From: Candidatus Bathyarchaeia archaeon
Lineage (GTDB): Archaea > Thermoproteota > Bathyarchaeia > Bathyarchaeales > DTEX01
Reading direction: 5' to 3'
DNA length: 64,000 nucleotides
Assembly: GCA_038867895.1 (NCBI GenBank)
Contig: JAWBXL010000004.1
Location: forward strand, 3,117 to 67,116
Position numbers and translations under genes: made by a program. Shown piece by piece: positions 3,894-37,488 of this stretch. Below the pieces are notes generated by a model. That model worked only from the letters and a program-made list of their open reading frames with translations. It was not told where the DNA came from and ran no database searches. Positions within the stretch are counted from its first letter, which is position 1. Each line of letters begins with the position of its first letter.

Positions 3894-3896
3894 TTA

Positions 3897-4295: not shown

Positions 4296-4415
4296 ACTTC
4301 AAGACCATCCAGCCATTTATTCCATCTAAACTCTACTAAGATATTTATTTTTTCTCTAAAAACCTTATTAAGAAAAACATGTTTAAGTTAAGTAAATTAG
4401 CGGAGGCGATATTGG

Positions 4416-5318
4416 TTGTCAGCTCTTAAATATGGAGATGTCGAAATTGAAGATACTTTTGCGGAAATGTTTGAGATGTGGACTAGTAGGGTTTTGATAA
4501 CTGCTGAGAATGAAAAGTGGGCTTTTAGGGCCGCTGAGAGCGCCGTTGGCTTCGCATCTTCAATAATAGGCTCGCCAGCTGAGGCCGGGATAGAGCGGCT
4601 TGTCCCGCCTGAAGAGACGCCTGATGGGAGGGTTGGCATACTAATACATTTTTATCATCGAACAAGAGGCGATTTAAAGAGGCAGATGATTACTAGAATA
4701 GGACAGTGTGTTATGACATGCCCGACAACGGCCGTGTTTGATGCCCTCAAGGAAACCGCCAGGAAACTTAAGGTTGGGAGGAGCCTGCGATATTTCGGCG
4801 ACGGCTTCCAGAAATTCGATGAGTTATATGGCCGAAAGGTGTGGCGCATACCAGTCATGGAGGGCGAGTTTCTAGTTGAGAATAGCTTTGGTGTAAAGAA
4901 GGGTATTGCTGGAGGAAACTTCTTCATAATGGCAAGGGACTTGAAGTCCGGCTTAACCGCCGCCGAAGCTGCCGTTGAGGCCATAAAAAGAAATGTTAAG
5001 GATGTAATAATGCCATTTCCCGGGGGGATATGTCGCTCAGGCTCTAAGGTCGGCTCACTTAAATATAAAATCCCAGCATCAACAAATCACCTCTACTGTC
5101 CAAGACTAAGGGGCATCGTGACGGATACCCGTGTTCCTGAAGGCGTAAATGCGATATATGAGATAGTGATAAATGGGCTGAATTTAGAGGGAGTTAAGGC
5201 TGCTATGGCGGAAGGCCTTAGGGCCGCGGCTAAGGTTCCTGGAGTCATCAGAATATCTGCTGGAAATTATGGGGGGAAACTCGGTCCATTTAAAGTTTAC
5301 CTACGCGATCTGCTCTAG
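4416..5318 (+). CDS. ftr: formylmethanofuran--tetrahydromethanopterin N-formyltransferase
   Basis: VEIEDTFAEMFEMWTSRVLITA...GFASSIIGSPAEAGIE fits Ftr. The protein is 300 aa with a TTG start. Confidence 0.9.
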   Translation: MSALKYGDVEIEDTFAEMFEMWTSRVLITAENEKWAFRAAESAVGFASSIIGSPAEAGIERLVPPEETPDGRVGILIHFYHRTRGDLKRQMITRIGQCVMTCPTTAVFDALKETARKLKVGRSLRYFGDGFQKFDELYGRKVWRIPVMEGEFLVENSFGVKKGIAGGNFFIMARDLKSGLTAAEAAVEAIKRNVKDVIMPFPGGICRSGSKVGSLKYKIPASTNHLYCPRLRGIVTDTRVPEGVNAIYEIVINGLNLEGVKAAMAEGLRAAAKVPGVIRISAGNYGGKLGPFKVYLRDLL

Positions 5319-9886: not shown

Positions 9887-10220
9887 GGACGGCGGGTCAC
9901 TGAGGCTCGACGCACAGAATCCGCAGACCCAAGCCAACCCGCCACTCATACCCGCACCCCTCTGAGCGCTGAGCGCCCGGACTTAGGTTGCTCCCTCCCG
10001 GGCCTGGCCAGGTTCGCCCGGCAAACGCGGTTACACCCCTCCTACGGGGGGTGCCCCGCGACCGTCAGCCCCAGAGGACAGATATTCATTGTTTAGGGTT
10101 GACTGGGACTACGGCCTTACGCGCCTTACCTCAGCTTTCGGCCCGCCGTATAGGGGGTTTGCGGTCGAGGCCCTTTGCCTCTCAGGGGACCCCTAGCCCC
10201 CCGCCTAAGACCCGCCGTCC
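9887..10220 (-). ncRNA. signal recognition particle (7S/SRP) RNA
   Basis: This is a GC-rich island with complementary termini (GGACGGCGGGT ... ACCCGCCGTCC). Minus-sense GGCCAGGCCCGGGAGGGAGCAACC (10009-9986) matches the conserved helix-8 core (compare E. coli CCAGGUCCGGAAGGAAGCAGCC). A downstream GGGGTGCGGG resembles the M. jannaschii S domain as I recall it. Confidence 0.8.
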
Positions 10221-14738: not shown

Positions 14739-15851
14739 TTAACTTTCCCTGAAACTTTTGATTATTCTTGGTATTTTCTCGGCTCTTAGCGCGTGGTCTG
14801 CTAATACAAATGCTAGGCATGCTTCGACGACGGGGACCGCTCTTGGGACTATACATGGGTCGTGCCTACCAGCAATTTGAATTTCTTCCTCCTCCATCGT
14901 TTTCAAGTTTACTGTCCTCTGCCTCTTTGATATTGATGGGGTTGGCTTGAATGCAACCCTAACCTTAATTGGCATGCCATTTGATAATCCGCCGATTATT
15001 CCACCAGAATTATTTGTTAATGTAACGATTTTTCCATCCCTTATTGCATATTGATCGTTGGCTTCTGAACCCTTCATTGAAGCTATTCTGAAGCCGGCCC
15101 CGAATTCTACGCCCTTAACAGCCGGTATATTGAATAGCATCTTTGCTATATCTGCATCTAGAGAATCGAATATTGGCTCACCCAGCCCGGCTGGGACATT
15201 TAATGCGATACCCTCAACAACCCCGCCCACGCTATCTCCCTTCCCAGCGGCCCTAAGCACCTCTCCAACCATTTTATCGGCTATTTTCGGAACCGCGCAT
15301 CTAGCAGGATTTGAGTAAACGTTCCTTCTTATATCGTCATATGACACTTCACAGTCAACACTAACGCCGCCAATTTGCACAGCATGAGCTAGAACCTCCA
15401 CCCCAATTAAGCCTAAAAGCTTCTTCGCGACTGCGCCGGCCATAACATAGGCTACCGTCACTCTTCCGGAGAACCTTCCTCCCCCGCGCGGATCATTGAA
15501 GCCGCCATACTTCACCCTAGCCGTGTAATCCGCGTGGCCAGGCCTGGGCTTAATCATAAAGTGTTCATATGGTCTGGAATCTACATCCCTATTCCTAACA
15601 ACCATACATATTGGCGCGCCAGTGGTATAGCCCCTGTAGATGCCCGATATTATTTTAACCTTATCCTCCTCCTTCCTAGACGAAGTTATCTCCGAGAGAC
15701 CAGGCCTCCTCTTGTCGAGCTCAGCCTGTATATCCGCCTCGCTCAGAGGCAGCCCAGCTGGGCAGCCGTCGATAACGGCTCCTATATATGCTCCGTGGCT
15801 CTCGCCAAAGCATGTAAGAGCCAGAGCTTTACCTATCGAGTTACCGTTCAA
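14739..15851 (-). CDS. aroC: chorismate synthase
   Basis: FGESHG, RPGHADY and GGGRFSGR motifs. Confidence 0.9.
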   Translation of the reverse strand: MNGNSIGKALALTCFGESHGAYIGAVIDGCPAGLPLSEADIQAELDKRRPGLSEITSSRKEEDKVKIISGIYRGYTTGAPICMVVRNRDVDSRPYEHFMIKPRPGHADYTARVKYGGFNDPRGGGRFSGRVTVAYVMAGAVAKKLLGLIGVEVLAHAVQIGGVSVDCEVSYDDIRRNVYSNPARCAVPKIADKMVGEVLRAAGKGDSVGGVVEGIALNVPAGLGEPIFDSLDADIAKMLFNIPAVKGVEFGAGFRIASMKGSEANDQYAIRDGKIVTLTNNSGGIIGGLSNGMPIKVRVAFKPTPSISKRQRTVNLKTMEEEEIQIAGRHDPCIVPRAVPVVEACLAFVLADHALRAEKIPRIIKSFRES

Positions 15852-17136
15852 TAATCTCAGCCCCGAGTAGACGCATATCCCTAATAAAATTTGGGTAGGA
15901 TTTACTTATACATTCAGCATCACGTATAATTGTCTCGCCATCAGCTCCCAGGGCGGCGACGGCGCAGGCCATGGCTATCCTATGATCCCCATGCGGATCT
16001 ATTATAGCCCCATGAAGACGCCCCCCGCCACGAATAATCAATGAGTCTTCTAGAACTCTTATCGACGCGCCCATCTTCCCAAGCTCGCTCAACAGCACCT
16101 CAACCCTATCAGACTCCTTAAACCTAAGCCTTCTAACACCGCTAATCACCGATTCTCCATCGGCAAAACATGCGAGGACAGCGCAGACCGGGACTAGGTC
16201 CGGGTTATCCCTCATATTAATGTTAACTGGCCTTAAACTTCCATCAATGTCCCTAACCTCAACACAATTTAGGCCGACATCGATCACCGCGCCCATATCG
16301 CCGAGGATACTAATTATCCTACGGTCCCCCTGGAGACTATCCCTTAAAAGGTTCTCAACCCTAACATTCGACCTTGTTATTGCCGCGGCCGCCAACAGGA
16401 ATGATGCCGAGGAGTAATCGCCCTCAATAGCATGATTATATGGCTTATACTCCTGTCCACAAGGCACATGAAACAGATTTTCAGAGGAGGCCACTTTAAC
16501 ATTATGTTTCGTGAGGATATCTAGTGTTATGTCCACGTATGGCTTAGACTCAAGGGATGTCAAAAGACATATATATGTATCGTTCTGGGCCATTGGAGCC
16601 GCAAAAAGTAAGCCTGAAATAAACTGCGAGCTTACATCACCCCTAATCCTGGCTCTTCCACCCCTAATCCCGCCGCCAAACACTATTATGGGCGGTCGGC
16701 CGTCACCCCGGGCCGAATAACATTTAACCCCAATCTGGCCTAGAGCATCCAGTAATGGGCCCATCGGCCTTCTCCTTAAACTTTCGCCCCCGGTGAGAAT
16801 GGAGATCCCGTCGGCGAGGGCGCATACAGGAGTAATAAACCGCATGGTGGATCCGGACTCGCCGCAATCTATGACGTCTTCTGGGGTCTTAGGCTTCGGG
16901 GAGCCCCCCACTCTTACCTCGCCACATTCTGAGACTGTTATCTCGGCCCCAAGCATTCGGCAGGCATTAATCGTCGCTATTGTATCATCGCAGAATAATA
17001 TGTTATGAATCTTTGATTCTCCTCGTGAAAGGGATGAGGCTATTATAGCTCGGTGTGTATGGGCTTTTGATGGAGGAGCCACTATAGAGCCATATAATGC
17101 GGCCCCACCCCTAACAATTAATTCAACCATTAACAT
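15841..17136 (-). CDS. aroA: 3-phosphoshikimate 1-carboxyvinyltransferase (EPSP synthase)
   Basis: PPSKAHTHRA, GESGSTMRF and DHRIAMA motifs. It overlaps aroC by 11 nt. Confidence 0.9.
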   Translation of the reverse strand: MLMVELIVRGGAALYGSIVAPPSKAHTHRAIIASSLSRGESKIHNILFCDDTIATINACRMLGAEITVSECGEVRVGGSPKPKTPEDVIDCGESGSTMRFITPVCALADGISILTGGESLRRRPMGPLLDALGQIGVKCYSARGDGRPPIIVFGGGIRGGRARIRGDVSSQFISGLLFAAPMAQNDTYICLLTSLESKPYVDITLDILTKHNVKVASSENLFHVPCGQEYKPYNHAIEGDYSSASFLLAAAAITRSNVRVENLLRDSLQGDRRIISILGDMGAVIDVGLNCVEVRDIDGSLRPVNINMRDNPDLVPVCAVLACFADGESVISGVRRLRFKESDRVEVLLSELGKMGASIRVLEDSLIIRGGGRLHGAIIDPHGDHRIAMACAVAALGADGETIIRDAECISKSYPNFIRDMRLLGAEIIER

Positions 17137-17148
17137 TTCCGCCTCATG

Positions 17149-18027
17149 CTATAATGGATGAGCCTTCTCACGGTTAATTACAGCCTCTATAACTTCACCA
17201 TCATATTTGCTCCAAGCGCGGCGGGCACTCTCAACTTTATCCCTTGGTACCACCGCGGCTACCGCCGGGCCCTTGCCGGAAAGCCCCGCTGCAATAGCCC
17301 CTGAAGATAGGGCATCTATAGCTACGTTTGGATCATATCCAAGGACCGCCGAGTAGGCTAGACCGTTAAGTGTCATTGCACGCCAATAGTCTCCGGAGAG
17401 GGCCATCCCATGTAGAGCCTTAATCTCCCTGGATATAATTTTCATTCTATTTACATCCGATTTAGCCGTATATGCTTTTCTTGGCGGAACATAAATTAAG
17501 ACTGCATAGTCTTCTTCTGGCTGAAAGATCCGTAAGATCTTTCTCTCAATATTGTCCGTTACGACTATGTTTCCGAAGTATGAGGCGCATGCATCATCAA
17601 ATGCTCCTGTCACTGTTACACCAGCCTCGATGGACGCTTCAACCCCAATATTAATTATCGTTAAATCATCTACTTCTTCGCCCAGCGCCGAGACTGTTGC
17701 AAGGGCTATTGCATTAGCCGCAGCGCTGCTACTCTTCAATCCACGTGCAATGGGAATGTTAGAATCCGTCTCAACATATGCTCCATACTGATCCTCAACA
17801 CCAAAATATTTTAGAAAGCGGCGGACAACCTTCTCGATCAAAATTATGCTCTCAGATGGATCTGAGAGGATTCTCCCCATGATCCTCCCAGGCTCATTTG
17901 TGAGCTTGACTCTAGCCTCAGTCTTAAGGTTTATCCCAAGGGCTGCGCCCAGACCGCAGGATATAGCATTAATGATGGTCACGGCCCCATACGCAATCGC
18001 CCGCCCAACCAAAGCCAAGAGCCGCAC
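17149..18027 (-). CDS. aroK: archaeal GHMP-type shikimate kinase
   Basis: GAVTIINAISCGLGAALGI and GLKSSSAAANA (GHMP motif). It lies between aroE and aroA. Confidence 0.8.
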   Translation of the reverse strand: MRLLALVGRAIAYGAVTIINAISCGLGAALGINLKTEARVKLTNEPGRIMGRILSDPSESIILIEKVVRRFLKYFGVEDQYGAYVETDSNIPIARGLKSSSAAANAIALATVSALGEEVDDLTIINIGVEASIEAGVTVTGAFDDACASYFGNIVVTDNIERKILRIFQPEEDYAVLIYVPPRKAYTAKSDVNRMKIISREIKALHGMALSGDYWRAMTLNGLAYSAVLGYDPNVAIDALSSGAIAAGLSGKGPAVAAVVPRDKVESARRAWSKYDGEVIEAVINREKAHPL

Positions 18028-18028
18028 C

Positions 18029-18895
18029 TCAACAACCTTTTTCCATAATTTTCTTTAGAGCTGCCTCCCTCATAACCTCTATTGGCGCCTTAACTCCAGT
18101 CCATATCTCGAAGGATAGTGCCCCCTGGTGGACGAGCATTGAGAGCCCATCAACAGTCTTTGCGCCAACGGACTTAGCTTCCCTGAGAAGTCTCGTCTCA
18201 AGCGGATCATAAACTATGTCGAAGACAGTTAAATTTCCATGAAGCATTTCTCTTTTAACGGGGGTTTCATCCTCATTTGGCTTCATGCCAACTGAGGTTG
18301 CGTTTATCAGTATGTCAGCATTTCTTAGCTCGTCCCCTAAAACCCCTTCTAAGAGGGGGCCAGCCCTAATCTCAACCGAGCTGGAAACTCTCCTTAATTC
18401 ATCCGCCAGCTCCTCAGCCTTCCTCAAAGTCCTATTTAATATTACTAGTTCTTGGGCGTGATTGACAAGCGTGAAAGATATTGATTTTGAGGCTCCCCCA
18501 GCCCCTAAAATAACAACTTTTTTTCCGAGGGGGTCGGAGCCAGCATACTTTAGGGCGCTAAGCGCGCCCAATCCGTCAGTCGTGTATCCTATAAGCCTGC
18601 CATCCCTATTAAGGATAGTGTTTACTGAACCAGCCATCTTAGCTCCCTCATCAAGTTCATCAAGATATTTTATCACGTTTATTTTATAGGGCATTGTTAC
18701 ATTTACTCCGCGGATACCGAGACCCCTTATGCCAGAAACGGCTTCCCCAAGATTCTCTGGTGGAACATTGAATGCCACATAAATGTAGTCTAGGCCAAGA
18801 TGCTGAAAGGCAGCGTTATGCATTATTGGGCTCAGCGAGTGCTCGATTGGATATCCTATTAGGGCGCAGACCCTCGTCCTACCAGTTATCTCCAT
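18029..18895 (-). CDS. aroE: shikimate 5-dehydrogenase
   Basis: SLSPIMHNAAF, NVTMPYK and GAGGASKS motifs. Confidence 0.9.
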   Translation of the reverse strand: MEITGRTRVCALIGYPIEHSLSPIMHNAAFQHLGLDYIYVAFNVPPENLGEAVSGIRGLGIRGVNVTMPYKINVIKYLDELDEGAKMAGSVNTILNRDGRLIGYTTDGLGALSALKYAGSDPLGKKVVILGAGGASKSISFTLVNHAQELVILNRTLRKAEELADELRRVSSSVEIRAGPLLEGVLGDELRNADILINATSVGMKPNEDETPVKREMLHGNLTVFDIVYDPLETRLLREAKSVGAKTVDGLSMLVHQGALSFEIWTGVKAPIEVMREAALKKIMEKGC

Positions 18896-19620
18896 TATTC
18901 TAACCTCATCCTCCTATAGATTTCCCTCATCTCATGAATAGATATTTGGCCCGGAGCAGTTTCAAGGCCCGCTCCAAGCGACGCATACGTAAATGACGCT
19001 CCAAAGACCGGGGATAAAATCCTCGAGAGCAAGCCCTTCTCGCCCATGGCGAAGCAGACTAGGCTGGTCCTCTTGCTCATTTCATACGTGAAAACCAGGC
19101 ATCTAACGCTATCTAACAGGCTATTCGCCATAGAAACAACCTTGCATATGTCAGCATTAGCCTCAACCTGCCTCCTGACGAGAGCCTCCAATTCTTCTGT
19201 TTGCGGCGTATGGGTGAAGATATGATAAGAAATTATTACTTTGGCTCCATGGGCTTTAATTTTGTCAACAACTTCATGAAGGTTCCGCGTGTCCAACTCT
19301 ATATCTATATAATCGAAGCCGGCTTCAGCAGCCATAATAAGCGACTCAATTCTCTCCCCCTCGCTTAACATGCATTCTCCGCCTTGCCCCTTATGCCTAT
19401 TAGTCGCTATTAACGGAACAGAACAGACGCTGACAACCTCTTTAAGGCGGTTAACGCTCTCCAATAATTTTTCACTCATATAGTCTAGTCTAATCTCAAT
19501 CAGATTAGCGCCGCTCTCTTCAGCCTCACGGACCCTATTAAAAAGACCTTGAAGATCTCTAGCGGGAATAGGAACGCAGACCCTTACACCCAAATTAACC
19601 CAGCCTTCCCTTTCACACAT
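18895..19620 (-). CDS. aroD: 3-dehydroquinate dehydratase, type I
   Basis: LIEIRLDY and a TIM-barrel type I DHQase pattern. It shares a 1-nt overlap with aroE. Confidence 0.8.
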   Translation of the reverse strand: MCEREGWVNLGVRVCVPIPARDLQGLFNRVREAEESGANLIEIRLDYMSEKLLESVNRLKEVVSVCSVPLIATNRHKGQGGECMLSEGERIESLIMAAEAGFDYIDIELDTRNLHEVVDKIKAHGAKVIISYHIFTHTPQTEELEALVRRQVEANADICKVVSMANSLLDSVRCLVFTYEMSKRTSLVCFAMGEKGLLSRILSPVFGASFTYASLGAGLETAPGQISIHEMREIYRRMRLE

Positions 19621-22986: not shown

Positions 22987-23346
22987 TTATTTTTTGAGTC
23001 TCTCCGCCTCACTTAACCTATTGTGGAAGCAGGTTTCTTCGCCTAGATGGCATGCTGGCCCCCTTGGTCTAACAACATATAGTATTGCATCTGAATCACA
23101 GTCAACAAGTATATCCACAACTTCTTGAACGTTCCCGGAGGTCTCCCCTTTCATCATAACCCTTCCATGAGACCGCCTATAGTAATGCGCGTAACCGGTC
23201 TCAATAGTCTTTTGGATGGCTTCCTTATTCACGTAAGCCAGCGTTAAAACTCTCCCAGCGCTCTCATCCTGAACAACAACTGGAAGTATTCCTCCGCCCT
23301 TCTCAAAATCCAGCTCATCTATGCTTATGTTCTTCAGAACCCTCAT
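22987..23346 (-). CDS. hisI: phosphoribosyl-AMP cyclohydrolase (monofunctional HisI)
   Basis: [26 protein letters not shown] and [12 protein letters not shown] motifs. At 119 aa there is no HisE domain. Confidence 0.85.
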
Positions 23347-24161
23347 AACCTAACAGGCACACCCCTCTCGCGGAGATACCGTTTAATGACTGGTATTGGA
23401 TATTTGCTGTAATGGAAGACTGAGGCGGCTAGAGCTGCATCAGCCCTCCCAGCAGTAAATGCCTCTAGAAAATGCTCGGGTTTACCAGCCCCACCGCTCG
23501 CGATGACGGGTATGTTGACGCGCTCAGAAATGCTTCTAGTTAATTCAATGTCATAGCCGAACTCTGTTCCATCCCTATCCATTGATGTAAGCAGTATCTC
23601 TCCAGCGCCCAATCTTTCTCCTCTCATAGCCCAATCAATGGCGTCTATGCCAGTTGGCTTCCGCCCGCCATAGATATAAACCTCAAACCAGCATGGCCCC
23701 TCAGAAGTATCAACGACATTTCTATCTGACCTCCGCTCATATCTTCTCTTCGCATCTATTGCTAGGACCACGCATTGCGATCCAAATGTCTCCGCGAGCT
23801 CTTTAATGAACTCTGGTCTCTCAACGGCCGCCGTGTTAACTGAGATCTTGTCGGCGCCATTAGATAGGACTGTATAGGCATCTTCAAGGCTCCTTATTCC
23901 GCCGCCAACGGTAAATGGTATATTTATCTCTGAGGCAACGGCCCTTACAACATCCTTTAAAATTTTTCTCTTCTCAGCCGACGCGGTTATATCAAGGAAG
24001 ACCATCTCATCAGCCCCATCATCACGGTATCTCCTAGCCATCTCAACGGGGTCTCCGGCATCCCTCAAGCCAACAAAATTTATACCCTTAACAACCCTCC
24101 CATGATCAACGTCTAGACACGGTATTATACGCTTAACCAAAACCATTTCAGGGCACCACAA
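23343..24161 (-). CDS. hisF: imidazole glycerol phosphate synthase cyclase subunit
   Basis: [16 protein letters not shown] and ASGGAG. Confidence 0.95.
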
Positions 24162-24170
24162 GATAGTACT

Positions 24171-24890
24171 TCATTTAGAGGAAACTTTTAAAGCTTCCTT
24201 TAGGCTGAAGCAGCCCTCATAGAGCGCCCTACCCACGATGACCCCGTAAAGGCCGAGGTTCTTCAGTAACATTAAGTCTTCTAGGCTTCTAACTCCACCG
24301 GATGCTATTATATTGGCGCCAAGATCCAGAATTTTAGAGAGGTTCTCAACGTCCGTTCCAGTGAGCAAGCCATCACGCTGAATTGATGTTACCAAGAGAA
24401 ATTTTACGCCCATATCCACAAATTTTTTCGCAGCCCTCCTAAGATCAATACCCGTCTGTTCCCTCCAGCCATCTGTCATAACCCTTCCCTCCACGTGATC
24501 CAGGGCGACAACAATCCTACTATAGCCGAGCTCCTTCAGGAGGGTTTCAAAAGTTTCTGGGCTTTTGAAGGCTAATGATCCGATCACGACCCTACTGGCC
24601 CCAAGATCAATTAGTTGGCGCGCCCGATGAACATTTCTTACTCCACCGCCAACCTGAACAGGAATTTTCAGGGCCCGGATAATATCGCCTATAACACTGA
24701 TGTTATCACCCCTTCCAAGGGCAGAATCCAAGTCAACTATGTGGATTAGCTGCGCACCCTCCGACTCCCACATCTTGGCGATCGCTACCGGGTCGCCGAG
24801 GCGATCATAGAATAATATGTGTTTGGGATCCCCCCTCAACAGCCTAACGACTCTGCCACCCATTAAATCAACTGATGGTATAACGAGCAA
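24171..24890 (-). CDS. hisA: ProFAR isomerase
   Basis: IPSVDLMGGRVVRL and a (beta/alpha)8 HisA pattern. Confidence 0.9.
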   Translation of the reverse strand: MLVIPSVDLMGGRVVRLLRGDPKHILFYDRLGDPVAIAKMWESEGAQLIHIVDLDSALGRGDNISVIGDIIRALKIPVQVGGGVRNVHRARQLIDLGASRVVIGSLAFKSPETFETLLKELGYSRIVVALDHVEGRVMTDGWREQTGIDLRRAAKKFVDMGVKFLLVTSIQRDGLLTGTDVENLSKILDLGANIIASGGVRSLEDLMLLKNLGLYGVIVGRALYEGCFSLKEALKVSSK

Positions 24891-24905
24891 GAATAATCAC
24901 CTAAG

Positions 24906-25508
24906 CTAATGCTTGATTATCTTCACGAAATTTCTTATAATTTGCTCGCCCGGCTTCTCCGACTTCTCCGGGTGGAACTGAACTCCGAAAATGTTTCCGC
25001 TGAAGATGACTGATGGAAAATTTACACCATATTCTGTTTCCGCGGCAACTATATCTTTATTCTCTGGAGAAACATAATAGCTATGGGCGAAGTAAAAGTA
25101 GTCTTTCTCGTCTATTCCGTCCAGAATCGGGGTCTGCTTAATTATCTTAAGGTTGTTCCAACCCATGTGGGGAACCTTGACAAATCTAGGGAGCCTAACA
25201 ACCCGACCAGAAAATATGCCCAACCCCTCTCCAAAGCCTTCATCACTCCCCCAAAAAAGAACCTGCACGCCAAGACATATCCCAAGAACTGGAACCTGAT
25301 CATCGAAGATAAGATTTAAGAGAACATCTTTAATCTTTCTGATCTTCTCGGAGCCAGCCATAAAGTTTCCAACTCCGGGGAGAACTATCCCACTAGATTT
25401 TTTCAGATCATTAGCGTCAAAGCATATTTTTACCTCGCAGCCGATCCTTTCAAGGGAACGCTTCACGCTAAAGAGGTTTCCAATGCCATAATCTACTATT
25501 GTAATCAT
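24906..25508 (-). CDS. hisH: imidazole glycerol phosphate synthase glutaminase subunit
   Basis: The GATase class I pattern VLGICLGVQ (Cys nucleophile) and FHPEKS. Confidence 0.9.
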   Translation of the reverse strand: MITIVDYGIGNLFSVKRSLERIGCEVKICFDANDLKKSSGIVLPGVGNFMAGSEKIRKIKDVLLNLIFDDQVPVLGICLGVQVLFWGSDEGFGEGLGIFSGRVVRLPRFVKVPHMGWNNLKIIKQTPILDGIDEKDYFYFAHSYYVSPENKDIVAAETEYGVNFPSVIFSGNIFGVQFHPEKSEKPGEQIIRNFVKIIKH

Positions 25509-26083
25509 TACAGGGCACCCTTTGAGCTCGGTATGCCATCTCTCTCAACATCAATTGATACTGCCTGTCTAAGGGATAGGGCGAGGGCCTTGAAGGCCGC
25601 CTCAACCTTATGGTGGTCATTTAATCCATACTGAACCCAGACATGCATATTTGCTCTGAGGGAGTTCGCCAGGGTTTCTAGGAAGTGATATATATCCTCG
25701 CACCGCATATCCTCGACATTCCTCCCCTCAAGCTTAAGATCTATCTTTGGGTAGGGCCTATTGGAGAGATCGATTGCTGCGAAGGCTAATGAGCAGTCCA
25801 TTGGGACTATAGCGTATCCAAATCTCCTTATGCCGGCATGGTCTCCGAGAGCCCTCTTCAATGCCTCGCCTAAGCACATGGCTACATCCTCAATAATGTG
25901 GTGGCTTAGGTCGCCCCTAGCCTCAACGTATAAATCTATTAGACTATGGGTTGCCAGAGACCTGAGCATGTGATCTAAAAATGATATGCCAGTATTAACG
26001 CTCGCGGAGCCAGATCCATCCAGCCTAACGCTAACTTTAACCTCGGTCTCGGCGGTTCTCCTATAATAATCTGCCTCCCTCAA
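25508..26083 (-). CDS. hisB: imidazoleglycerol-phosphate dehydratase (dehydratase-only form)
   Basis: RTAETEVKVSV, HHIIEDVA and DHHKVEAAFKA. At 191 aa there is no fused phosphatase domain. Confidence 0.9.
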   Translation of the reverse strand: MREADYYRRTAETEVKVSVRLDGSGSASVNTGISFLDHMLRSLATHSLIDLYVEARGDLSHHIIEDVAMCLGEALKRALGDHAGIRRFGYAIVPMDCSLAFAAIDLSNRPYPKIDLKLEGRNVEDMRCEDIYHFLETLANSLRANMHVWVQYGLNDHHKVEAAFKALALSLRQAVSIDVERDGIPSSKGAL

Positions 26084-27270
26084 ACTCTCATTCTCCTGAC
26101 GGCCTCAATTATGAATGGTATTTCATTAGCGGATGGAGAAATAATATCACAGCCAAATTTAAGGAATTCCCCCAGAGCTTTATCCCGCGCGCCCGTGTAC
26201 ATATATACTCCGGCAAATATAAACCTTGGATCCAACTTATTAGCCCTATCAACTGTTAGGGCGTCCTCCATCGAGTCGCCTACATAAAGAGCCATTCTGA
26301 AGGGCTCTAGACCCCATGCTGACTTAAACAGCGGGTATGGATTGGGCTTTCTGAGACCAACCTTTAATAAACCCCTATTCAGGTATTCGCCCTCAATCTT
26401 CTCTATATCATCTAAGAAGACCAGCGCCTTTTGGTTAAAGAGGTCTAGAAGGAAACCAAGAACATATTTTGCGGGAGCAAATCTGCTTCCTGAAACTATC
26501 CCAAACCTAGCCCCGCTAATAAGCGTGGATAGCCTGCTGAAAGTCTCGGGATTAATTATGATCTTACTGTTATTTATTGTTCCAAGACCATAGAAGAACC
26601 TCGGCTCAATACCATACATTTTCCTAAAAAGTTCCGCCCCGCAAAAAATCTCCTCAAACACCGTCGTAATAACGCTCTCGCCAACCCGCTTTGAACCATA
26701 GAGGAAATCCTTTAAGAGAAAATAGATTTCCTTAGGAGTATTTTTTGAGGAGAAGATCGCCCTATCAACCGAGTTTACTCCAGTCTCATCAAGCATTAGA
26801 GTGAATTTTTTAAGATTCTCAGATAAAATTTTGACGTCAAAATTTATGTTTTCTCCATATGTTTTCTCTTTTATCGTCTTGATACGTTCAGCGACACCTT
26901 TTTCATGCCTGAGAAGCCCCACCATCTCAGTAAGCTCTCTTAGAAACTTTATTGGCATCTCACATAGCAGGAACATGAGTATGCCATAAGCTATGTCACA
27001 ATCATCGTTAAATCCCCCGCTTCTCCTAAAAAGAAATATTATTTCATCAGAGACCAATTCCTCTGGGATGAGGTGGCCCGTAAGCGCCTCAAATATCCAT
27101 TTAACAGTTTTTGATATCGCTTTATCGTAGGTTTCCCTCACATCTATTAGGACGCCGTCGCAATCGAATATTACCGCGTCTATTCTCTTAATATCCTTTA
27201 GCTTACTTTCCTTAACATAGGCATCGCCGAGATCGAATCCTATCCTAATATACTCTTTAGGCGCCTCCAT
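26080..27270 (-). CDS. HAD-superfamily hydrolase with oversized cap, embedded in the his operon (candidate histidinol-phosphate phosphatase)
   Basis: HAD motifs are FDCDGVLID (D36/D38), VSGS (~260), GLRKPNP and YVGDSMED. It overlaps hisC by 14 nt and hisB by 4 nt. Confidence 0.7.
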   Translation of the reverse strand: MEAPKEYIRIGFDLGDAYVKESKLKDIKRIDAVIFDCDGVLIDVRETYDKAISKTVKWIFEALTGHLIPEELVSDEIIFLFRRSGGFNDDCDIAYGILMFLLCEMPIKFLRELTEMVGLLRHEKGVAERIKTIKEKTYGENINFDVKILSENLKKFTLMLDETGVNSVDRAIFSSKNTPKEIYFLLKDFLYGSKRVGESVITTVFEEIFCGAELFRKMYGIEPRFFYGLGTINNSKIIINPETFSRLSTLISGARFGIVSGSRFAPAKYVLGFLLDLFNQKALVFLDDIEKIEGEYLNRGLLKVGLRKPNPYPLFKSAWGLEPFRMALYVGDSMEDALTVDRANKLDPRFIFAGVYMYTGARDKALGEFLKFGCDIISPSANEIPFIIEAVRRMRV

Positions 27271-28375
27271 GCATAACCTCCCTAAGCTCCTTGATGAAGC
27301 GCTCCATCATATGGCTTGGGGCAACAGTAACCCTTAAACAATTATTGAAGCTCAGCACCTGACCAATATTCCTTATAATGACACCCTTCTCCAAGAGATT
27401 CTTGTATACGGCTAAGGAATCTCTATCCACCTGAAATAGCACAAAATTTGTTTCGGAGGGGAATGCCCTCACGCCCACAATATTGTTGAGCGCGGTTATG
27501 AGATTAGCTCTCTCCCGCCTAATAGCGCTAATCGTTTCTACTATTTCATCCCATCGTTCAAGCATCTTAGCCGCCGCCTTAAGCGCTACCGTCGAGACGG
27601 AGTATGGCATCTGAAATCTCTCCTCAATAACCCTGGCGAGCCTCCTATTGGCCACGGCATAGCCAACCCTCAAGCCCGCTAAGCCAAATGTCTTAGAAAA
27701 TGTTCTGAAAACTATTAGATTGCTAAGATCCAGCGCGGCGTCGGCCAATGTTGCGCCGGCAAAGTCGGCGTAAGTTTCATCTACCGCCACAGGCCCATCA
27801 AATCTTCCGGCCAGATCCAGTATATCCTCTCGCCTAAGCTGGTTAGCCGTGGGATTATTTGGTGAGCATAAGAAAATGATTCTTAATCTTGAAGTAGCCG
27901 CGGACAACATCGAATTAACGTCTAGGGAGAAGTCGTCTTTTAGCGGTATTCTCCTATAGTCGGCTCCCTGAATCCTAACGCAGCGCTCATAAATAGAGAA
28001 GGTTGGCTCTATTGACAGCGCCTCATCTCCATCCCTAAGAAAGATCCTTGAAACAAGGTCTATCAGCTGATCGCTCCCAGCCCCAATCACTATACATTCC
28101 TCTGGAACACCGATGAAATTGCTTATAGCCTTCTTCAGGAAACCATATTCATCTCGGGGGTATATTCTCGGATCAGCCTCCTCGATAACCTGCCTTAAAA
28201 CATCCTTTAGAAGGTCGAGTGGCACAAAAAAGTTCTCATTTGAGTTAAGCTTAAGTATTTCATCGGGCTTTCTCCTAAGTTTTAAGGCTAAACCCTCAAT
28301 TGTTTCTCCAACATCATATATGCTTAGGCTCCGAGCCTCGCCAATAGTCTCCTCAATAATCTTTTTTCCAGTCAA
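27257..28375 (-). CDS. hisC: histidinol-phosphate aminotransferase
   Basis: CSPNNPT and FSKTFGLAGLRVGY (PLP lysine). Confidence 0.9.
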   Translation of the reverse strand: MTGKKIIEETIGEARSLSIYDVGETIEGLALKLRRKPDEILKLNSNENFFVPLDLLKDVLRQVIEEADPRIYPRDEYGFLKKAISNFIGVPEECIVIGAGSDQLIDLVSRIFLRDGDEALSIEPTFSIYERCVRIQGADYRRIPLKDDFSLDVNSMLSAATSRLRIIFLCSPNNPTANQLRREDILDLAGRFDGPVAVDETYADFAGATLADAALDLSNLIVFRTFSKTFGLAGLRVGYAVANRRLARVIEERFQMPYSVSTVALKAAAKMLERWDEIVETISAIRRERANLITALNNIVGVRAFPSETNFVLFQVDRDSLAVYKNLLEKGVIIRNIGQVLSFNNCLRVTVAPSHMMERFIKELREVMHGGA

Positions 28376-29646
28376 CCCTTAACCCTCTCGCCTATAGCTA
28401 ATGCATGATTTACTAGGCCCTCGCTCTCAGCCATGGTTATAGCGCTCTCCGATAATTTTCTCAAAGCCTCCTGGGGGCACTCGGCAATAACAGTAAATTT
28501 AATGAAGTTTAGGACTGAGAGGGGCTGATAAACGTGGCCGTATCCACCTGTTGGGATCACATGGTTTGTTCCTAAGCAGTAATCGCTTATGGGTGCTGGC
28601 GACGAGCCGCCGATCAATATTAGCCCAGCAGAATAAACTTCCATGGATAATCTATGAGCATCCTCAGCGATTATTTCCAGGTGCTCCGGAGCAAAATTGT
28701 TTATGAATTTTATGGCCTCGTTCATGTCATCTGCAGTCAGCAATAATATATCTCCGTTCAGCCGGGCATCTTTAACCAAGCATTTTATATTCTCATACAC
28801 ACACTCAGCCAATCTTGATGACGCGGTAACTAGAATGGCTATGCTTCCGGGACCATGCTCCATCTGGGATGCTAGGTCTAATGCAACATGATATGGATTG
28901 GCGGTCTCATCCGCTAAAACCATTATCTCGCTTGGACCAGCTGGATGATCAATTGGAACATCCCGGGAAACCAGCAGTTTGGCGGCCATAACATACTGAT
29001 TTCCTGGCCCAACAATCTTTTTAACTGGTTTGATGCTCTCTGTTCCATAAGCCATTGCGGCTATGGCTTGTGCCCCTCCAACTCTGTAGACTTCATTTAC
29101 ACCGCATATGTCGGCTGCCACAAGGGTTAAAGGGTGAACCCCACCGTTTTTTGATGGGGGGGTGCAAACAATAACCCTTGATACGCCTGCAACCTTTGCT
29201 GGGATAACTGCCATCATGAGTGTGCTTGGGTATGGAAATCTTCCTCCCGGCACATAGCAGCCTATGCTCTCAATAGGCTTTGGTCTCCAGCACACCTTAA
29301 CGCCTAGTTCATCAGTATACTCGAAATTCATTTTAGAGAGGAGATTCCTCTCAACATCATATATTCTCTTTTTAGCGGTCTCAAGCGCCGATATCTGCTT
29401 CTCGCTAACCATGCCATAAGCTTCCATGATCTCTTTTGGGTTAACCCTAAGCCTATCAGCATTCAATTTGACTCCATCAAATTTTTCGGTGAGCTCTATT
29501 AGGGCTTGGTCACCCCGCTCCCTAACGTTTTTGATTATCCCCTCAATATAGCTCAGTAATTCATTGTTTAGGATCCTCTTTCTTGGCCACCTATTCCTCA
29601 GGAGAATCTCCTGCATCTCGTTAAGCCTCATTATCTTCGCTGGCAA
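28372..29646 (-). CDS. hisD: histidinol dehydrogenase
   Basis: GPGNQYVMAAK, QMEHG and the overall HisD pattern. Confidence 0.95.
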   Translation of the reverse strand: MPAKIMRLNEMQEILLRNRWPRKRILNNELLSYIEGIIKNVRERGDQALIELTEKFDGVKLNADRLRVNPKEIMEAYGMVSEKQISALETAKKRIYDVERNLLSKMNFEYTDELGVKVCWRPKPIESIGCYVPGGRFPYPSTLMMAVIPAKVAGVSRVIVCTPPSKNGGVHPLTLVAADICGVNEVYRVGGAQAIAAMAYGTESIKPVKKIVGPGNQYVMAAKLLVSRDVPIDHPAGPSEIMVLADETANPYHVALDLASQMEHGPGSIAILVTASSRLAECVYENIKCLVKDARLNGDILLLTADDMNEAIKFINNFAPEHLEIIAEDAHRLSMEVYSAGLILIGGSSPAPISDYCLGTNHVIPTGGYGHVYQPLSVLNFIKFTVIAECPQEALRKLSESAITMAESEGLVNHALAIGERVKG

Positions 29647-29648
29647 CT

Positions 29649-30641
29649 TTAGATCTCTCCAGTCTTCTCTTCATTCATGGATATCTCCTCTAATGGGAGA
29701 ACCTGCCTAGGCTCATAGACAACCAATCCTTGGGCGAGTCTCCTTAATGTTGGGAGAATTTCTAGGAACTGGTTTTTATCTATCACTGTATTTACGGAGT
29801 ACCAGTTTTCGTCTGCTAGGGGCGCTATCGTCGGCTTTTTGAGGGCTGGAAGCTTCTCTAGAAGCTGTGGGAGATTATCCTTGTGTACGTTAACGAATAT
29901 GTGCAGTTTCTTTTTGCCGTCAATTGCACCCTTTAGGAGGGTTAGGACGTCATATATTTTCTCACGCTTCTCCGGATCCTTGAGGGAACCCCTATTCGCT
30001 ATCAGCATCGCTGAGGACTCCATTATAACTTCAACCGGCTTTAAATTGTTCCGCTCAAGAGACTCGCCGGTCTCCATCACGTCGATTATTGCGTCTGCCT
30101 CCTCCGGGGGCTTGGCCTCGGTTGCCCCGAAGGAGAGATACAATGCAACCCTGTAGTTCTCACCTTTCCTCCACCATGGTGTAACCATCAATGGCTCCTT
30201 ATCGCCATAAAGCCTTCTATAAGCTGGATCATTCATTAGATACTCGGCTGAAACATTAAGGTACTCCGTTGATATCCTTAGAATTCTGTCTTCCCGGCTG
30301 AACTTCTCAAGTAGGCTTGAGAGATCCTTCACGTCGGTCCAGACTTTTGGAACTGCCAGGACGAGCTTAACCCCACCGTACTCAAGGTTTAATAGGACCT
30401 CCACGTCTACGCGCGCCTCTCTTATCCAGTCTATCCCGGTTATGCCTATGTCATGAAGCCCATCTGCGACGAGCATTGGTATCTCCTGTGGCCTGAGGAT
30501 CTTCAGCTCTATCTTCGGGTCGTTTATTGAGGGTCTATATGAGCGGTCTGCGCCCGATATAACGTAGCCAGCCCTCTCCAGCAGCTTGAAGGCGCCGTCG
30601 GCAAGGTGTCCCTTTGGTATAGCAAAACTAATCTTGCTCAT
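29649..30641 (-). CDS. hisG: ATP phosphoribosyltransferase, long form with C-terminal regulatory domain
   Basis: FAIPKGHL at the N-terminus. At 330 aa it has a HisG_C-like tail. It is the first gene of the his operon. Confidence 0.85.
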   Translation of the reverse strand: MSKISFAIPKGHLADGAFKLLERAGYVISGADRSYRPSINDPKIELKILRPQEIPMLVADGLHDIGITGIDWIREARVDVEVLLNLEYGGVKLVLAVPKVWTDVKDLSSLLEKFSREDRILRISTEYLNVSAEYLMNDPAYRRLYGDKEPLMVTPWWRKGENYRVALYLSFGATEAKPPEEADAIIDVMETGESLERNNLKPVEVIMESSAMLIANRGSLKDPEKREKIYDVLTLLKGAIDGKKKLHIFVNVHKDNLPQLLEKLPALKKPTIAPLADENWYSVNTVIDKNQFLEILPTLRRLAQGLVVYEPRQVLPLEEISMNEEKTGEI

Positions 30642-30956
30642 AATAGGTCACCATCATTTCCATCATCTTATCTGTTAATATGTGCCAAAAATTATGCATA
30701 GACAATAATGTCTTTCTGAGGGAAGAGAATACGCTAATAAAAGTGAATACGTTCACCTGACAATCCTTGCACCACAAGTAAAGATGTAAACAATGGCTTT
30801 CTATATAAATTTTATCCCTTAAACCTTAAACTTTGAACTTTAGACTTTTGTTTCAGAAACTACCTCTCCCTCTAGGGAGAATTATTTTATATTACTCTGC
30901 CAGCCGGGGGTCTAGATTTTATGCTTATAAAATTTCAGCCGTTGAAGTTGATTTAG

Positions 30957-31241
30957 CTATAAGCCCTTAGGTTCGACTATGTCGCCCGTGGCCTTTAGAA
31001 CCCATATGCACTCTTTTTCGGCTCTCTCGGTTAGGTCTGGCATGGCTAGGCTTGTGTAAACGACCCTAAGTATTTTTGGTCTCAGCCTGTCTTGGTATAG
31101 GTTTCTAAGCGTATCTGGTTTGCTGTTTAGTTCGTCTATGATGTTTTGGTATGCTCTAACGGGTGCCTCACCTATAACGCATAATCCTTCTGTAGCCCCG
31201 TGGATGCTCAGATTTAGCTCTGGTAGGGTTTGGGTGTTATT
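30957..31241 (-). other. start-less stop-free frame (94 codons), possible 5'-truncated gene remnant
   Basis: My translation gives NNTQTLPELNLSIHGATEGLCVIGEAPVRAYQNIIDELNSKPDTLRNLYQDRLRPKILRVVYTSLAMPDLTERAEKECIWVLKATGDIVEPKGL*. The only ATG/GTG/TTG is 28 codons from the end. Confidence 0.25.
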
Positions 31242-31336
31242 TTAATATTATAGCATAATTTAATGATCCGAAAACTCTCTGAGAAAAATTTCAATAAAAT
31301 AAAAAATAGGGAGTGGTGTTATGTTGCTTTATGCCA

Positions 31337-36606: not shown

Positions 36607-37488
36607 TTATCTCCCAGAGCCTCTCTTAGCTAAGCCCTCAATATACTCTTTTCTCTCTAGTTCCCTCAACCATTCAACCGGTATAGCTTCCACGCCATGG
36701 TATGCGCCCCCTATGGCCCCGGCCATAGCCCCAATAGTATCCACGTCGCCGCCGAGGCTCACGGCATATTCTAAAGCGCTCCTAAAGCTAGGAAGATTGC
36801 GTAGAAAATAATATATTGCAGTTGGGACAGAATTAAATGTCTCGAGACCATTCCCAAGCTCCCTAATAATAATAGACTTATTCTGCTCATTAAGCAAAAC
36901 ACGAACCTTCTTGAGCTTAAGCTTATAAACATCGCTTTTTTGTAATGCCTAAAAGCTCCTCAATAAAATCGTTTGGATTAATCCCCCTGCGTCTGTCGGA
37001 TCTAACAGCTAGGGCGACTGCGCACGCCTGTATGACGGTGCCCTCAATTCCAAGCTTATGCGCATAAGTTGTTATACTCTGATTGCAAGCAATCTCCACC
37101 AGCGTCTCCAGATCGTCAAAGTAGAGGCCAACCGGAGCAACCCTCATGGCAGCCCCATTTCCAAAGGAGCCCGCTCCGCCAAAAAGCCTTTTAGCAGCCT
37201 CATTCCATGGAACACCCGACTTAATCAGCCTAAAAACTCTTGGCGGGCCAATCGCATAGCCTCTCCAGGGCTCCTCTTCATAGTTTCTTATGAAGATCCA
37301 CGCCATATGGTCTCCATTGAAGCACCTGTTAGCGATGAGCGATTCAGCAACACTATCATCATATGCGTATCGTCACTCCACCTTCTACTGTAAGAGCCAA
37401 GCCAGTATCCATAACCCAATGCGTCACTAACAGCACAACCAAGCATGCACCCAATAAACTTGGATAACACGTTATTATCCAGCATCAA
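36607..37488 (-). pseudogene. ADP-ribosylglycohydrolase (DraG/ARH family) disrupted by two frameshifts
   Basis: There are three fragments: LGCAVSDALGYGY...SDDTHMM; (AESLIANRCFNGDH)MAWIF...GSFGNGAAMRVAP; and GGDVDTIGAMAGAIGGAYHG. The breaks lie near 37343-37356 and in the A-run at 36933-36943. The outer fragments share one frame. Confidence 0.7.

What the first reader, a model, noticed from the sequence alone, without database searches (positions are those of the whole stretch)
26080..27270. Oversized HAD hydrolase translationally coupled inside the his operon: candidate missing histidinol-phosphate phosphatase
The operon reads hisG-D-C-[HAD]-B-H-A-F-I. The HAD gene overlaps hisC by 14 nt and hisB by 4 nt. 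HisB is the dehydratase-only form, and no PHP-type (HisJ/K) or IMPase-type (HisN) phosphatase is present in the operon. The protein has all four HAD motifs (D36xD38, S~260, K in GLRKPNP, GDSMED). About 220 residues separate motifs I and II, roughly twice a normal subfamily I cap. It is therefore not the E. coli HisB-N type. The phosphatase step is patchily assigned in archaea.
Basis: partly seen in the sequence, partly recalled or inferred. Interest (0 to 1): 0.6.

Follow-up and report, generated by a model that had tools for sequence, protein, structure and literature searches.

The report
Archaeal histidinol-phosphate phosphatase in his operon

Summary
A 396-aa ORF (26080-27270, minus strand) lies between hisC and hisB in a hisG-D-C-X-B-H-A-F-I operon. 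It overlaps hisC by 14 nt and hisB by 4 nt. It carries all four HAD motifs (D36/D38, S260, K308, D332/D336), with 224 residues between motifs I and II.

The interpretation (the missing histidinol-phosphate phosphatase) is well supported but not new. Kinateder et al. 2024 (PMC10804674) showed that the gene between hisC and hisB of Nitrosopumilus maritimus (Nmar_1556, nmHisN) is a specific HolPase. It is a HAD enzyme with one large helical cap. They also predicted the same function for Thaumarchaeota and Bathyarchaeota homologues carrying the fingerprint Y24-D25-K/R56-D/E64.

- The window protein aligns to thaumarchaeal orthologues (BLASTP 1e-31; profile-profile E 4e-71).
- It carries the fingerprint as Y48-D49-R82-D90, the variant of the Thermococcus enzyme toHisN.
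- It keeps the same operon position in 30 of 34 related loci.
- It folds (pLDDT 92) as a Rossmann core plus an all-helical cap.

The only difference is a poorly conserved insertion of about 44 residues (two helices) in the cap, plus a 13-residue insertion between motifs II and III. Activity was not tested and the rest of the genome was not seen. Verdict: a new, still unannotated member of a known kind; low interest.

The parts
26080..27270 (-). HAD-superfamily histidinol-phosphate phosphatase of the nmHisN/toHisN type, 396 aa. It is identical to the protein annotated 'MAG: hypothetical protein QXX56_02735 [Candidatus Bathyarchaeia archaeon]' (MEM1550650.1).
   Evidence: ORF. Pfam PF00702. 100% identity to P0001. 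Homology to thaumarchaeal orthologues. AF2 model with pLDDT 92.
27154..27165 (-). HAD motif I, DCDG: D36 is the nucleophile and D38 the general acid/base.
   Evidence: Invariant in 120/120 homologues.
27124..27129 (-). Fingerprint residues Y48-D49, equivalent to nmHisN Y24-D25. They are proposed to contact the imidazole ring.
   Evidence: Alignments A2 and hhalign. Paper PMC10804674. Among 120 homologues Y is present in 120 and D in 47, with N in 71.
26995..27027 (-). R82 and the GGFNDDCD block containing D90. R82 is equivalent to nmHisN K56 (R in toHisN). D90 is equivalent to E64 (D in toHisN).
   Evidence: The Tt82/6IAH alignment shows the same RRxGxFxDD block.
26521..27141 (-). All-helical cap domain, residues about 44-250, inserted directly after motif I. 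The model has nine helices of 9 to 20 residues at residues 48-219, followed by a 4-residue and a 10-residue helix.
   Evidence: AF2 secondary structure.
26821..26952 (-). Cap insertion, residues about 107-150, forming two extra helices. It is absent from the ammonia-oxidising thaumarchaeal enzymes, poorly conserved, and has pLDDT about 80.
   Evidence: Alignments A2 and hhalign. Models compared. Conservation in A1.
26488..26502 (-). HAD motif II, GIVSG, with S260.
26338..26358 (-). HAD motif III, GLRKPNP, with K308.
26263..26280 (-). HAD motif IV, GDSMED, with D332 and D336 as Mg2+ ligands.
27257..28375 (-). hisC, histidinol-phosphate aminotransferase, which makes the phosphatase's substrate. 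Its last 14 nt overlap the phosphatase start.
   Evidence: TIGR01141 at 297.7 bits, above cutoff. Junction sequence.
25508..26083 (-). hisB, imidazoleglycerol-phosphate dehydratase only (191 aa). Its start overlaps the phosphatase stop by 4 nt (TTGA).
   Evidence: PF00475 and NF002111. Junction sequence.
28372..30641 (-). hisG (29649-30641) and hisD (28372-29646), the first two genes of the operon.
   Evidence: Pfam HisG, HisG_C and Histidinol_dh.
22987..25508 (-). hisH (24906-25508), hisA (24171-24890), hisF (23343-24161) and hisI (22987-23346; PRA-CH only, with no hisE).
   Evidence: Pfam. NCBIfam.

Best explanation
The gene most likely encodes the histidinol-phosphate phosphatase (step 8 of histidine biosynthesis) of this Bathyarchaeia archaeon. 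It belongs to the archaeal nmHisN/toHisN family of HAD phosphatases.

**Mechanism.** This is inferred from HAD chemistry and from the alanine scan of nmHisN, not shown here.
- Mg2+ is held by D36, the backbone of D38, and D332/D336.
- D36 attacks the phosphate of L-histidinol phosphate, forming an aspartyl-phosphate intermediate.
- D38 protonates the leaving histidinol and then activates water.
- S260 and K308 bind the phosphate.
- The helical cap closes over the site and confers specificity: Y48, D49 and D90 contact the imidazole ring, and R82 stabilises the transition state or leaving group.

**Expression.** The gene is translationally coupled to hisC upstream, which makes its substrate, and to hisB downstream. 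The phosphatase is therefore made together with the rest of the pathway.

**Extra segments.** The two extra cap helices (residues about 107-150) and the 13-residue loop between motifs II and III are lineage-specific, poorly conserved elaborations, probably peripheral.
For: **Shown here**
- The HAD motifs are intact and invariant.
- The structure model is confident: a Rossmann core plus one all-helical cap.
- Homology to thaumarchaeal genes at the same operon position: BLASTP 1e-31 with 28% identity; hhalign probability 100%, E 4e-71 over 318 columns.
- The fingerprint columns align to Y48, D49, R82 and D90, and the accessory hydrophobic positions to I52 and I78.
- The order hisG-D-C-HAD-B-H-A-F-(I) is present in 30 of 34 loci across Bathyarchaeota, Nitrososphaerales, Nitrosopumilales, an Odinarchaeia contig and one bacterial contig.
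- HisB lacks a phosphatase domain, and no PHP or IMPase protein is in the window.
- By sequence, the only clear PDB relative is Tt82 of Thermococcus thioreducens (6IAH). It shares the SYD and RRxGxFxDD blocks and is the second-best fold match.

**From the literature (PMC10804674)**
- Nmar_1556 is a HolP-specific phosphatase: kcat/KM about 1e4 M-1 s-1, with no activity on nine other phosphoesters.
- Y24, D25, K56 and E64 are critical for its activity.
- toHisN carries the Y-D-R-D variant of the fingerprint.
- Cluster I of the paper's similarity network contains Bathyarchaeota sequences.
- 101 of 154 cluster members carry the fingerprint and were predicted to be HolPases.
Against: - Neither this protein nor any Bathyarchaeia member has been assayed.
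- Identity to the thaumarchaeal (Nitrosopumilus) orthologue is only 28%. Nmar_1556 itself was not available for alignment.
- The fingerprint Asp is Asn in 71 of the 120 closest homologues. The paper left open whether D25N is compatible with HolPase activity, so the fingerprint is not an absolute rule in this lineage.
- The cap carries a 44-residue insertion of unknown effect.
- From my own recollection, the paper describing the Thermococcus relative Tt82 reported diverse substrate specificity. That paper is not in the library, so I could not check this.
- Only 64 kb of the genome was seen, so another HolPase may exist.
- I could not align the Nmar_1556 sequence itself. A Nitrosopumilus sp. orthologue at the same operon position was used as proxy.
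Confidence: 0.88

Rival explanations
1. It is a HAD phosphatase with a different or broad physiological substrate, such as sugar phosphates, phosphoglycolate or nucleotides. Its place in the his operon would then be a historical accident or a moonlighting arrangement.
For: - JGI names many homologues 'phosphoglycolate phosphatase-like HAD superfamily hydrolase'.
- Weak NCBIfam hits go to phosphoglycolate phosphatase models in the relative P0070.
- Homologues in L009 and L012 are not next to his genes.
- Most close homologues have Asn instead of the fingerprint Asp.
Against: - The PGP-like names come from generic HAD-core similarity. All of those hits are far below their curated cutoffs.
- Synteny between hisC and hisB holds across two archaeal phyla.
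- The protein has the full fingerprint of residues shown to be needed for HolP turnover.
- nmHisN rejected nine alternative substrates.
- The operon otherwise lacks the phosphatase step.
Confidence: 0.07
2. It is a HolPase, but a redundant one. The main enzyme would be a PHP-, IMPase- or HisB-N-type protein encoded elsewhere in the genome.
For: - Only 64 kb of the genome was available.
- Redundant HolPases are known in Pseudomonas aeruginosa (abstract of PMC12220765).
Against: - The gene is translationally coupled inside the operon.
- It is conserved there in 30 of 34 loci.
- No other candidate is present in the window.
- The KEGG analysis in PMC10804674 found no annotated HolPase in two thirds of histidine-producing archaea.
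Confidence: 0.04
3. It is a chance ORF or a mis-called gene.
For: None.
Against: - 571 homologues of about 400 aa.
- Invariant catalytic residues.
- AF2 model with pLDDT 92.
- A conserved N-terminus that supports the ATG at 27270.
Confidence: 0.005

Closest known systems
nmHisN (Nmar_1556), the HolPase of Nitrosopumilus maritimus (Kinateder et al. 2024, PMC10804674)
   Same: - HAD core.
- One large all-helical cap inserted after motif I.
- Gene located between hisC and hisB.
- Fingerprint positions conserved (Y, D, basic, acidic), plus the two accessory hydrophobic residues.
- Profile-profile E 4e-71 to thaumarchaeal orthologues.
   Different: - About 28% identity to the Nitrosopumilus orthologue.
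- 396 aa against about 322 aa.
- Two additional cap helices (residues about 107-150) and a 13-residue insertion between motifs II and III.
- R82/D90 instead of K56/E64.
- Motif II is SGS instead of TGR.
toHisN (TON_0887) of Thermococcus onnurineus (Lee et al. 2008, cited in PMC10804674) and its structural relative Tt82 (PDB 6IAH)
   Same: - Monofunctional HAD ('DDDD') HolPase with a single helical cap.
- Identical fingerprint variant, Y-D-R-D.
- The SYD and RRxGxFxDD blocks align.
- 6IAH is the second-best fold match.
   Different: - Tt82 is 240 aa and toHisN is described with a seven-helix cap; the toHisN length was not checked.
- It lacks the N-terminal beta-hairpin.
- Only about the first 80 residues align significantly by sequence (E 1e-9).
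- That Tt82 is orthologous to toHisN is my inference.
E. coli HisB N-terminal domain (HAD subfamily IIIA; TIGR01656, NF003937)
   Same: Same reaction and the same superfamily chemistry.
   Different: It is capless, has a Zn-binding loop, and is fused to IGPD. Here HisB is IGPD only, and the phosphatase gives no TIGR01656 hit.
paHisN (PA0335) of Pseudomonas aeruginosa
   Same: A monofunctional HAD HolPase.
   Different: It has a phosphoserine-phosphatase-like four-helix cap plus a second insertion, and a different fingerprint (D16-D18-Y47). It is considered independently evolved.
PHP-type HisJ/HisK and IMPase-type HisN
   Same: Same reaction.
   Different: Unrelated folds. No such domain is found in the protein or in the window.
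PDB 1QYI (S. aureus Q8NW41, structural-genomics target, function unknown)
   Same: Best fold match in the PDB: a 380-aa HAD protein, E 3e-11, TM about 0.58 over 410 columns.
   Different: 17% identity. It is not detected by sequence or profile search. It has no known function or his-operon context.
TIGR01548 (HAD-SF-IA-hyp1, hypothetical equivalog)
   Same: The best-scoring NCBIfam model for this protein and for its thaumarchaeal relatives.
   Different: Scores are 41-76 bits against a cutoff of 140.2, so these proteins are not members by the curated threshold.

Membership tests
nmHisN/toHisN-type archaeal HAD histidinol-phosphate phosphatase | HAD catalytic motifs I-IV are intact. | tested here: met
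   D36/D38, S260, K308 and D332/D336 are present and invariant in 120/120 homologues.
nmHisN/toHisN-type archaeal HAD histidinol-phosphate phosphatase | A single large all-helical cap is inserted directly after motif I. | tested here: met
   In the AF2 model (pLDDT 92) the helices between motif I and motif II span residues 48-250. A Nitrosopumilus orthologue modelled the same way has nine cap helices, as the paper reports for nmHisN.
nmHisN/toHisN-type archaeal HAD histidinol-phosphate phosphatase | Fingerprint Y24, D25, K/R56, D/E64 (nmHisN numbering). | tested here: met
   Y48, D49, R82 and D90, by alignment to thaumarchaeal orthologues. The spacing pattern Y/D, I at -4 and +4, I-x3-K and K-x7-E matches the published numbering. 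The alignment used a Nitrosopumilus sp. orthologue, not Nmar_1556 itself.
nmHisN/toHisN-type archaeal HAD histidinol-phosphate phosphatase | Accessory hydrophobic residues I28 and I52. | tested here: met
   I52 and I78. These positions are I, V, L or M in nearly all of the 120 homologues.
nmHisN/toHisN-type archaeal HAD histidinol-phosphate phosphatase | Significant full-length sequence homology to the characterised clade. | tested here: met
   BLASTP 1e-31 to P0266 from Nitrosopumilus sp.. hhalign probability 100%, E 4e-71.
nmHisN/toHisN-type archaeal HAD histidinol-phosphate phosphatase | Gene located between hisC and hisB in a his cluster. | tested here: met
   True in the window and in 30 of 34 related loci.
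nmHisN/toHisN-type archaeal HAD histidinol-phosphate phosphatase | Specific Mg2+-dependent hydrolysis of L-histidinol phosphate. | not testable with these tools
   Requires an enzyme assay or genetic complementation.
E. coli HisB-N type (HAD-IIIA, fused to IGPD) | Capless HAD-IIIA domain (TIGR01656) fused N-terminally to IGPD. | tested here: not met
   HisB is 191 aa and matches only positions 167-355 of the bifunctional model NF003937. The HAD protein gives no TIGR01656 hit.
PHP-type HolPase (HisJ/HisK) | PHP domain. | tested here: not met
   No PHP Pfam hit in the protein, the operon or the other window ORFs scanned.
IMPase-type HolPase (HisN) | Inositol monophosphatase fold or domain. | tested here: not met
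   No IMPase Pfam hit in the protein, the operon or the other window ORFs scanned.
TIGR01548 HAD-SF-IA-hyp1 | Score at or above the curated cutoff of 140.2 bits. | tested here: not met
   40.8 bits. Thaumarchaeal relatives score 71-76 bits.

The most novel reading that the evidence does not exclude
The Bathyarchaeia and basal-Nitrososphaerota form of the enzyme could be a functionally distinct variant rather than a neutral elaboration. It differs from the characterised enzyme by two extra cap helices (residues about 107-150) and a 13-residue insertion between motifs II and III. These might change cap gating, provide a docking surface for HisC (substrate hand-over) or another partner, or confer regulation.
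Probability: 0.1. Interest if true: 0.35.

Novelty: new member of a known kind. Interest (0 to 1): 0.15.

Why it matters
The practical value is annotation. This protein and hundreds of Bathyarchaeia homologues are still deposited as 'hypothetical protein' or as 'phosphoglycolate phosphatase-like' hydrolases. No NCBIfam model names the family. Automated metabolic reconstructions of Bathyarchaeia will therefore report a gap at step 8 of histidine biosynthesis that is probably not real. The finding opens no new question. The enzyme family, its operon position and its specificity fingerprint were published in 2024, and Bathyarchaeota homologues were explicitly included there.

Tried and rejected
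**Obtaining Nmar_1556 for a direct alignment.** All three routes failed, so I used a Nitrosopumilus sp. orthologue in the same hisC-hisB position as a proxy.
- The paper's supplements are not held.
- A second homologue search seeded with a Nitrosopumilus orthologue listed only unnamed metagenomic proteins of at least 80% identity.
- A cluster look-up of NCBI-sourced hits returned no names.

**Literature dead ends.**
- Lee et al. 2008 (PMC2293174) is not held.
- A search for 'TON_0887' found nothing.
- The Tt82 structure paper is not in the library.

**Other checks.**
- A regex scan of all six frames for a HisE-like motif found nothing. This is a weak test, so I conclude only that hisE is not in the operon.
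- L034 (Desulfamplus), from the genome scan, is a generic 214-aa HAD-IA/PGP-like protein and not a family member. I excluded it.
- The chance-ORF and alternative-start ideas were rejected, because the N-terminus (Y7, Y18) is conserved across homologues.
I considered a duplicated or fused cap and rejected that reading. The cap is the family's normal helical cap plus a two-helix insertion.
Full report
**What is there**

The window carries a nine-gene histidine operon on the minus strand. All genes were confirmed by Pfam and NCBIfam.

| Gene | Coordinates | Note |
|---|---|---|
| hisG | 29649-30641 | |
| hisD | 28372-29646 | |
| hisC | 27257-28375 | |
| HAD gene | 26080-27270 | 396 aa |
| hisB | 25508-26083 | 191 aa, IGPD domain only |
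| hisH | 24906-25508 | |
| hisA | 24171-24890 | |
| hisF | 23343-24161 | |
| hisI | 22987-23346 | PRA-CH only |

- The HAD ORF overlaps hisC by 14 nt, with a GGAGG 5 nt upstream of its ATG.
- It overlaps hisB by 4 nt (TTGA).
- Its HAD motifs are DCDG (36-39), GIVSG (S260), GLRKPNP (K308) and GDSMED (331-336).
- D36 to S260 is 224 residues.
- The window is archaeal: it holds an archaeal SRP RNA.
- The protein is identical to a 'hypothetical protein' of a Candidatus Bathyarchaeia MAG.

**Is it a real, conserved gene?**

Yes.
- The homologue search found 571 relatives. The 120 closest have a median length of 401 aa, and the named ones are mostly Bathyarchaeia.
- A profile search of 1.84 billion cluster representatives found 1299 at E up to 0.001 and 238 at E up to 1e-30.
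- In the 120 closest homologues every catalytic residue is invariant.
- AlphaFold2 with a 26-sequence alignment gives pLDDT 92 and pTM 0.90. The model has an N-terminal beta-hairpin (residues 7-20) and a Rossmann core. An all-helical cap is inserted right after motif I. Its helices are at 48-64, 75-83, 90-103, 107-120, 126-136, 146-157, 165-174, 180-191 and 200-219, plus two short ones.

**What it is**

The key evidence is in the literature. Kinateder, Mayer, Nazet and Sterner (Protein Sci 2024, PMC10804674) started from Fondi et al.'s 2009 note of an uncharacterised hydrolase gene between hisC and hisB in Thaumarchaeota.
- They purified Nmar_1556 of Nitrosopumilus maritimus and showed it to be a HolP-specific phosphatase. 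Its kcat is 0.79 s-1 and its KM 73 uM with Mg2+. It had no activity on nine other phosphoesters.
- They named it nmHisN. It is a HAD enzyme with one large nine-helix cap, distantly related to the Thermococcus onnurineus HolPase toHisN (Lee et al. 2008).
- An alanine scan defined the fingerprint Y24, D25, K/R56, D/E64, with accessory residues I28 and I52.
- Their similarity-network cluster I contains Thaumarchaeota and Candidatus Bathyarchaeota sequences. Of its 154 members, 101 carry the fingerprint and were predicted to be HolPases. The remainder mostly carry D25N.

**Membership tests run here**

1. *Homology.* The window protein matches a Nitrosopumilus sp. orthologue (P0266, from locus L023, in the hisC-hisB position) at BLASTP E 1e-31 and 28% identity. 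A Bathyarchaeia profile against a thaumarchaeal profile gives hhalign probability 100% and E 4e-71 over 318 columns.
2. *Fingerprint.* In the joint alignment the thaumarchaeal SYD...I-x3-K-x7-E pattern reproduces the published spacing. It aligns to Y48, D49, I52, I78, R82 and D90 of the window protein. That is Y-D-R-D, the toHisN variant. Among the 120 closest homologues the fingerprints are YNRD 62, YDRD 45, YNKD 9 and YDKD 2. This mirrors the paper's D25N observation.
3. *Synteny.* A scan of one genome per GTDB species returned 34 loci. tblastn with the window's His proteins shows the order hisG-D-C-HAD-B-H-A-F-(I) in 30 of them. These include Bathyarchaeota, Nitrososphaerales, Nitrosopumilus, Nitrosotalea, Nitrosarchaeum, Cenarchaeum, an Odinarchaeia contig and one bacterial contig.
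4. *Solved structures.* By sequence, the only clear PDB relative is Tt82 of Thermococcus thioreducens (6IAH). It shares the SYD and RRxGxFxDD blocks and is the second-best fold match. The best fold match is 1QYI, a 380-aa S. aureus HAD protein of unknown function.
5. *Exclusions.* There is no TIGR01656/HisB-N hit. No PHP or IMPase domain occurs in the operon or in the window ORFs I scanned. TIGR01548 is the best NCBIfam model but scores far below its cutoff.

**The 'oversized' aspect**

The large cap is the family's hallmark, not a peculiarity of this gene.
- A Nitrosopumilus orthologue modelled the same way (pLDDT 91) has nine cap helices in 322 aa. This agrees with the paper's description of nmHisN.
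- The window protein has two more helices. They come from an insertion at residues about 107-150.
- It also has a 13-residue insertion between motifs II and III.
- The cap insertion is shared by Bathyarchaeia and by basal Nitrososphaerota and Caldarchaeales homologues. It is poorly conserved in sequence and has the lowest confidence in the model, about 80. I read it as a peripheral elaboration. A functional role is not excluded.

**How it most likely works**

This is inferred, not shown here.
- *Catalysis:* standard HAD chemistry. D36 is the nucleophile and forms an aspartyl-phosphate. D38 is the general acid/base. S260 and K308 bind the phosphate. D332 and D336 bind Mg2+.
- *Substrate recognition:* the closing cap recognises the histidinol moiety. 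By analogy with the nmHisN alanine scan and docking, Y48, D49 and D90 contact the imidazole ring and R82 stabilises the transition state or leaving group.
- *Expression:* translational coupling to hisC and hisB ties expression to the pathway.

**Limits**

- There is no activity assay for this protein or for any Bathyarchaeia member.
- Nmar_1556 and TON_0887 themselves could not be retrieved for direct alignment.
- Only 64 kb of the genome was seen.

**Verdict**

It is a new, currently unannotated member of a known enzyme family. Interest is low. Its value is in correcting annotation gaps in Bathyarchaeia metabolic reconstructions.

Noticed in passing
L006:2540-10251 (contig CALHAI010000004.1, 'uncultured Blastocatellia bacterium', 324,717 bp): A bacterial (Acidobacteriota) contig carries the complete archaeal-style hisG-D-C-HAD-B-H-A-F-I operon, including an nmHisN-type gene. 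Its proteins are 35-65% identical to the window's. The flanking genes are Omp85/BamA with POTRA domains and a SurA-like gene, so the contig looks genuinely bacterial. This suggests inter-domain transfer of the whole operon.
   Followed up: partly
L004:3159-4289 and L004:7474-8592 (Bathyarchaeia MAG contig CAZCKR010000029.1): One his operon holds two paralogues of the phosphatase, one between hisC and hisB and a second after hisI. The fingerprint Asp is replaced by Gly in the first and Pro in the second. It is unclear which of them, if either, is the HolPase.
   Followed up: partly
L009:5953-7095 and L012:5986-7131 (Nitrososphaerota / Caldarchaeum MAGs): These full-length homologues carry the Y-D-R-D fingerprint but are not in a his cluster. 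Their neighbours are a GHMP kinase and an isocitrate/isopropylmalate dehydrogenase. No his genes lie within 6 kb.
   Followed up: partly
window 22987-23346: hisI is the cyclohydrolase (PRA-CH) only. No hisE (PRA-PH) is in the operon, and a crude motif scan of the window found none. The hisE step must be encoded elsewhere.
   Followed up: partly
window 30642-31336: The spacer upstream of hisG is unusually long at about 695 bp. It holds an open frame on the minus strand (about 31237 to 30957) with a protein-like translation (...VIGEAPVRAYQNIIDELNSKPDTLRNLYQDRLRPKILRVVYTSLAMPDLTERAEKECIWVLKATGDIVEPKGL*). There is no canonical start codon before the Met at 31043. It may be a gene remnant or a gene with a non-canonical start. 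A TTTATATA box lies at about 30805.
   Followed up: no
window 9890-10217 (-): Archaeal signal recognition particle RNA (RF01857, 168.6 bits, full length).
   Followed up: no
window 14739-19620 (-): A compact shikimate-pathway operon: type I dehydroquinase, shikimate dehydrogenase, archaeal GHMP-type shikimate kinase, EPSP synthase and chorismate synthase. It lies about 3.4 kb from the his operon.
   Followed up: no
PDB 1QYI (fold search): The best structural neighbour of the model is a 380-aa S. aureus HAD protein solved by structural genomics, with no assigned function (E 3e-11, TM about 0.58). Its relation to the nmHisN family is undetectable by sequence and may be worth examining.
   Followed up: no
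P0266 / L023:5953-6921 and other Nitrosopumilaceae loci (L013, L018, L021, L022): The published nmHisN numbering (Y24) is about 15 residues lower than in Nitrosopumilus orthologues read from their conserved upstream start (Y39 in P0266). Those extra residues form a predicted N-terminal beta-hairpin that is also present in the window protein. Nmar_1556 may therefore be annotated with too late a start. I could not check this without its sequence.
   Followed up: partly
window 36923-37306 (-): A 127-aa ORF matches only positions 80-179 of the 287-position ADP-ribosylglycohydrolase profile. It may be a truncated gene or a pseudogene.
   Followed up: no
window 2457-5318: A molybdopterin oxidoreductase is split into two adjacent ORFs (478 aa and 132 aa). 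Next to it lies formylmethanofuran:H4MPT formyltransferase (Ftr).
   Followed up: no
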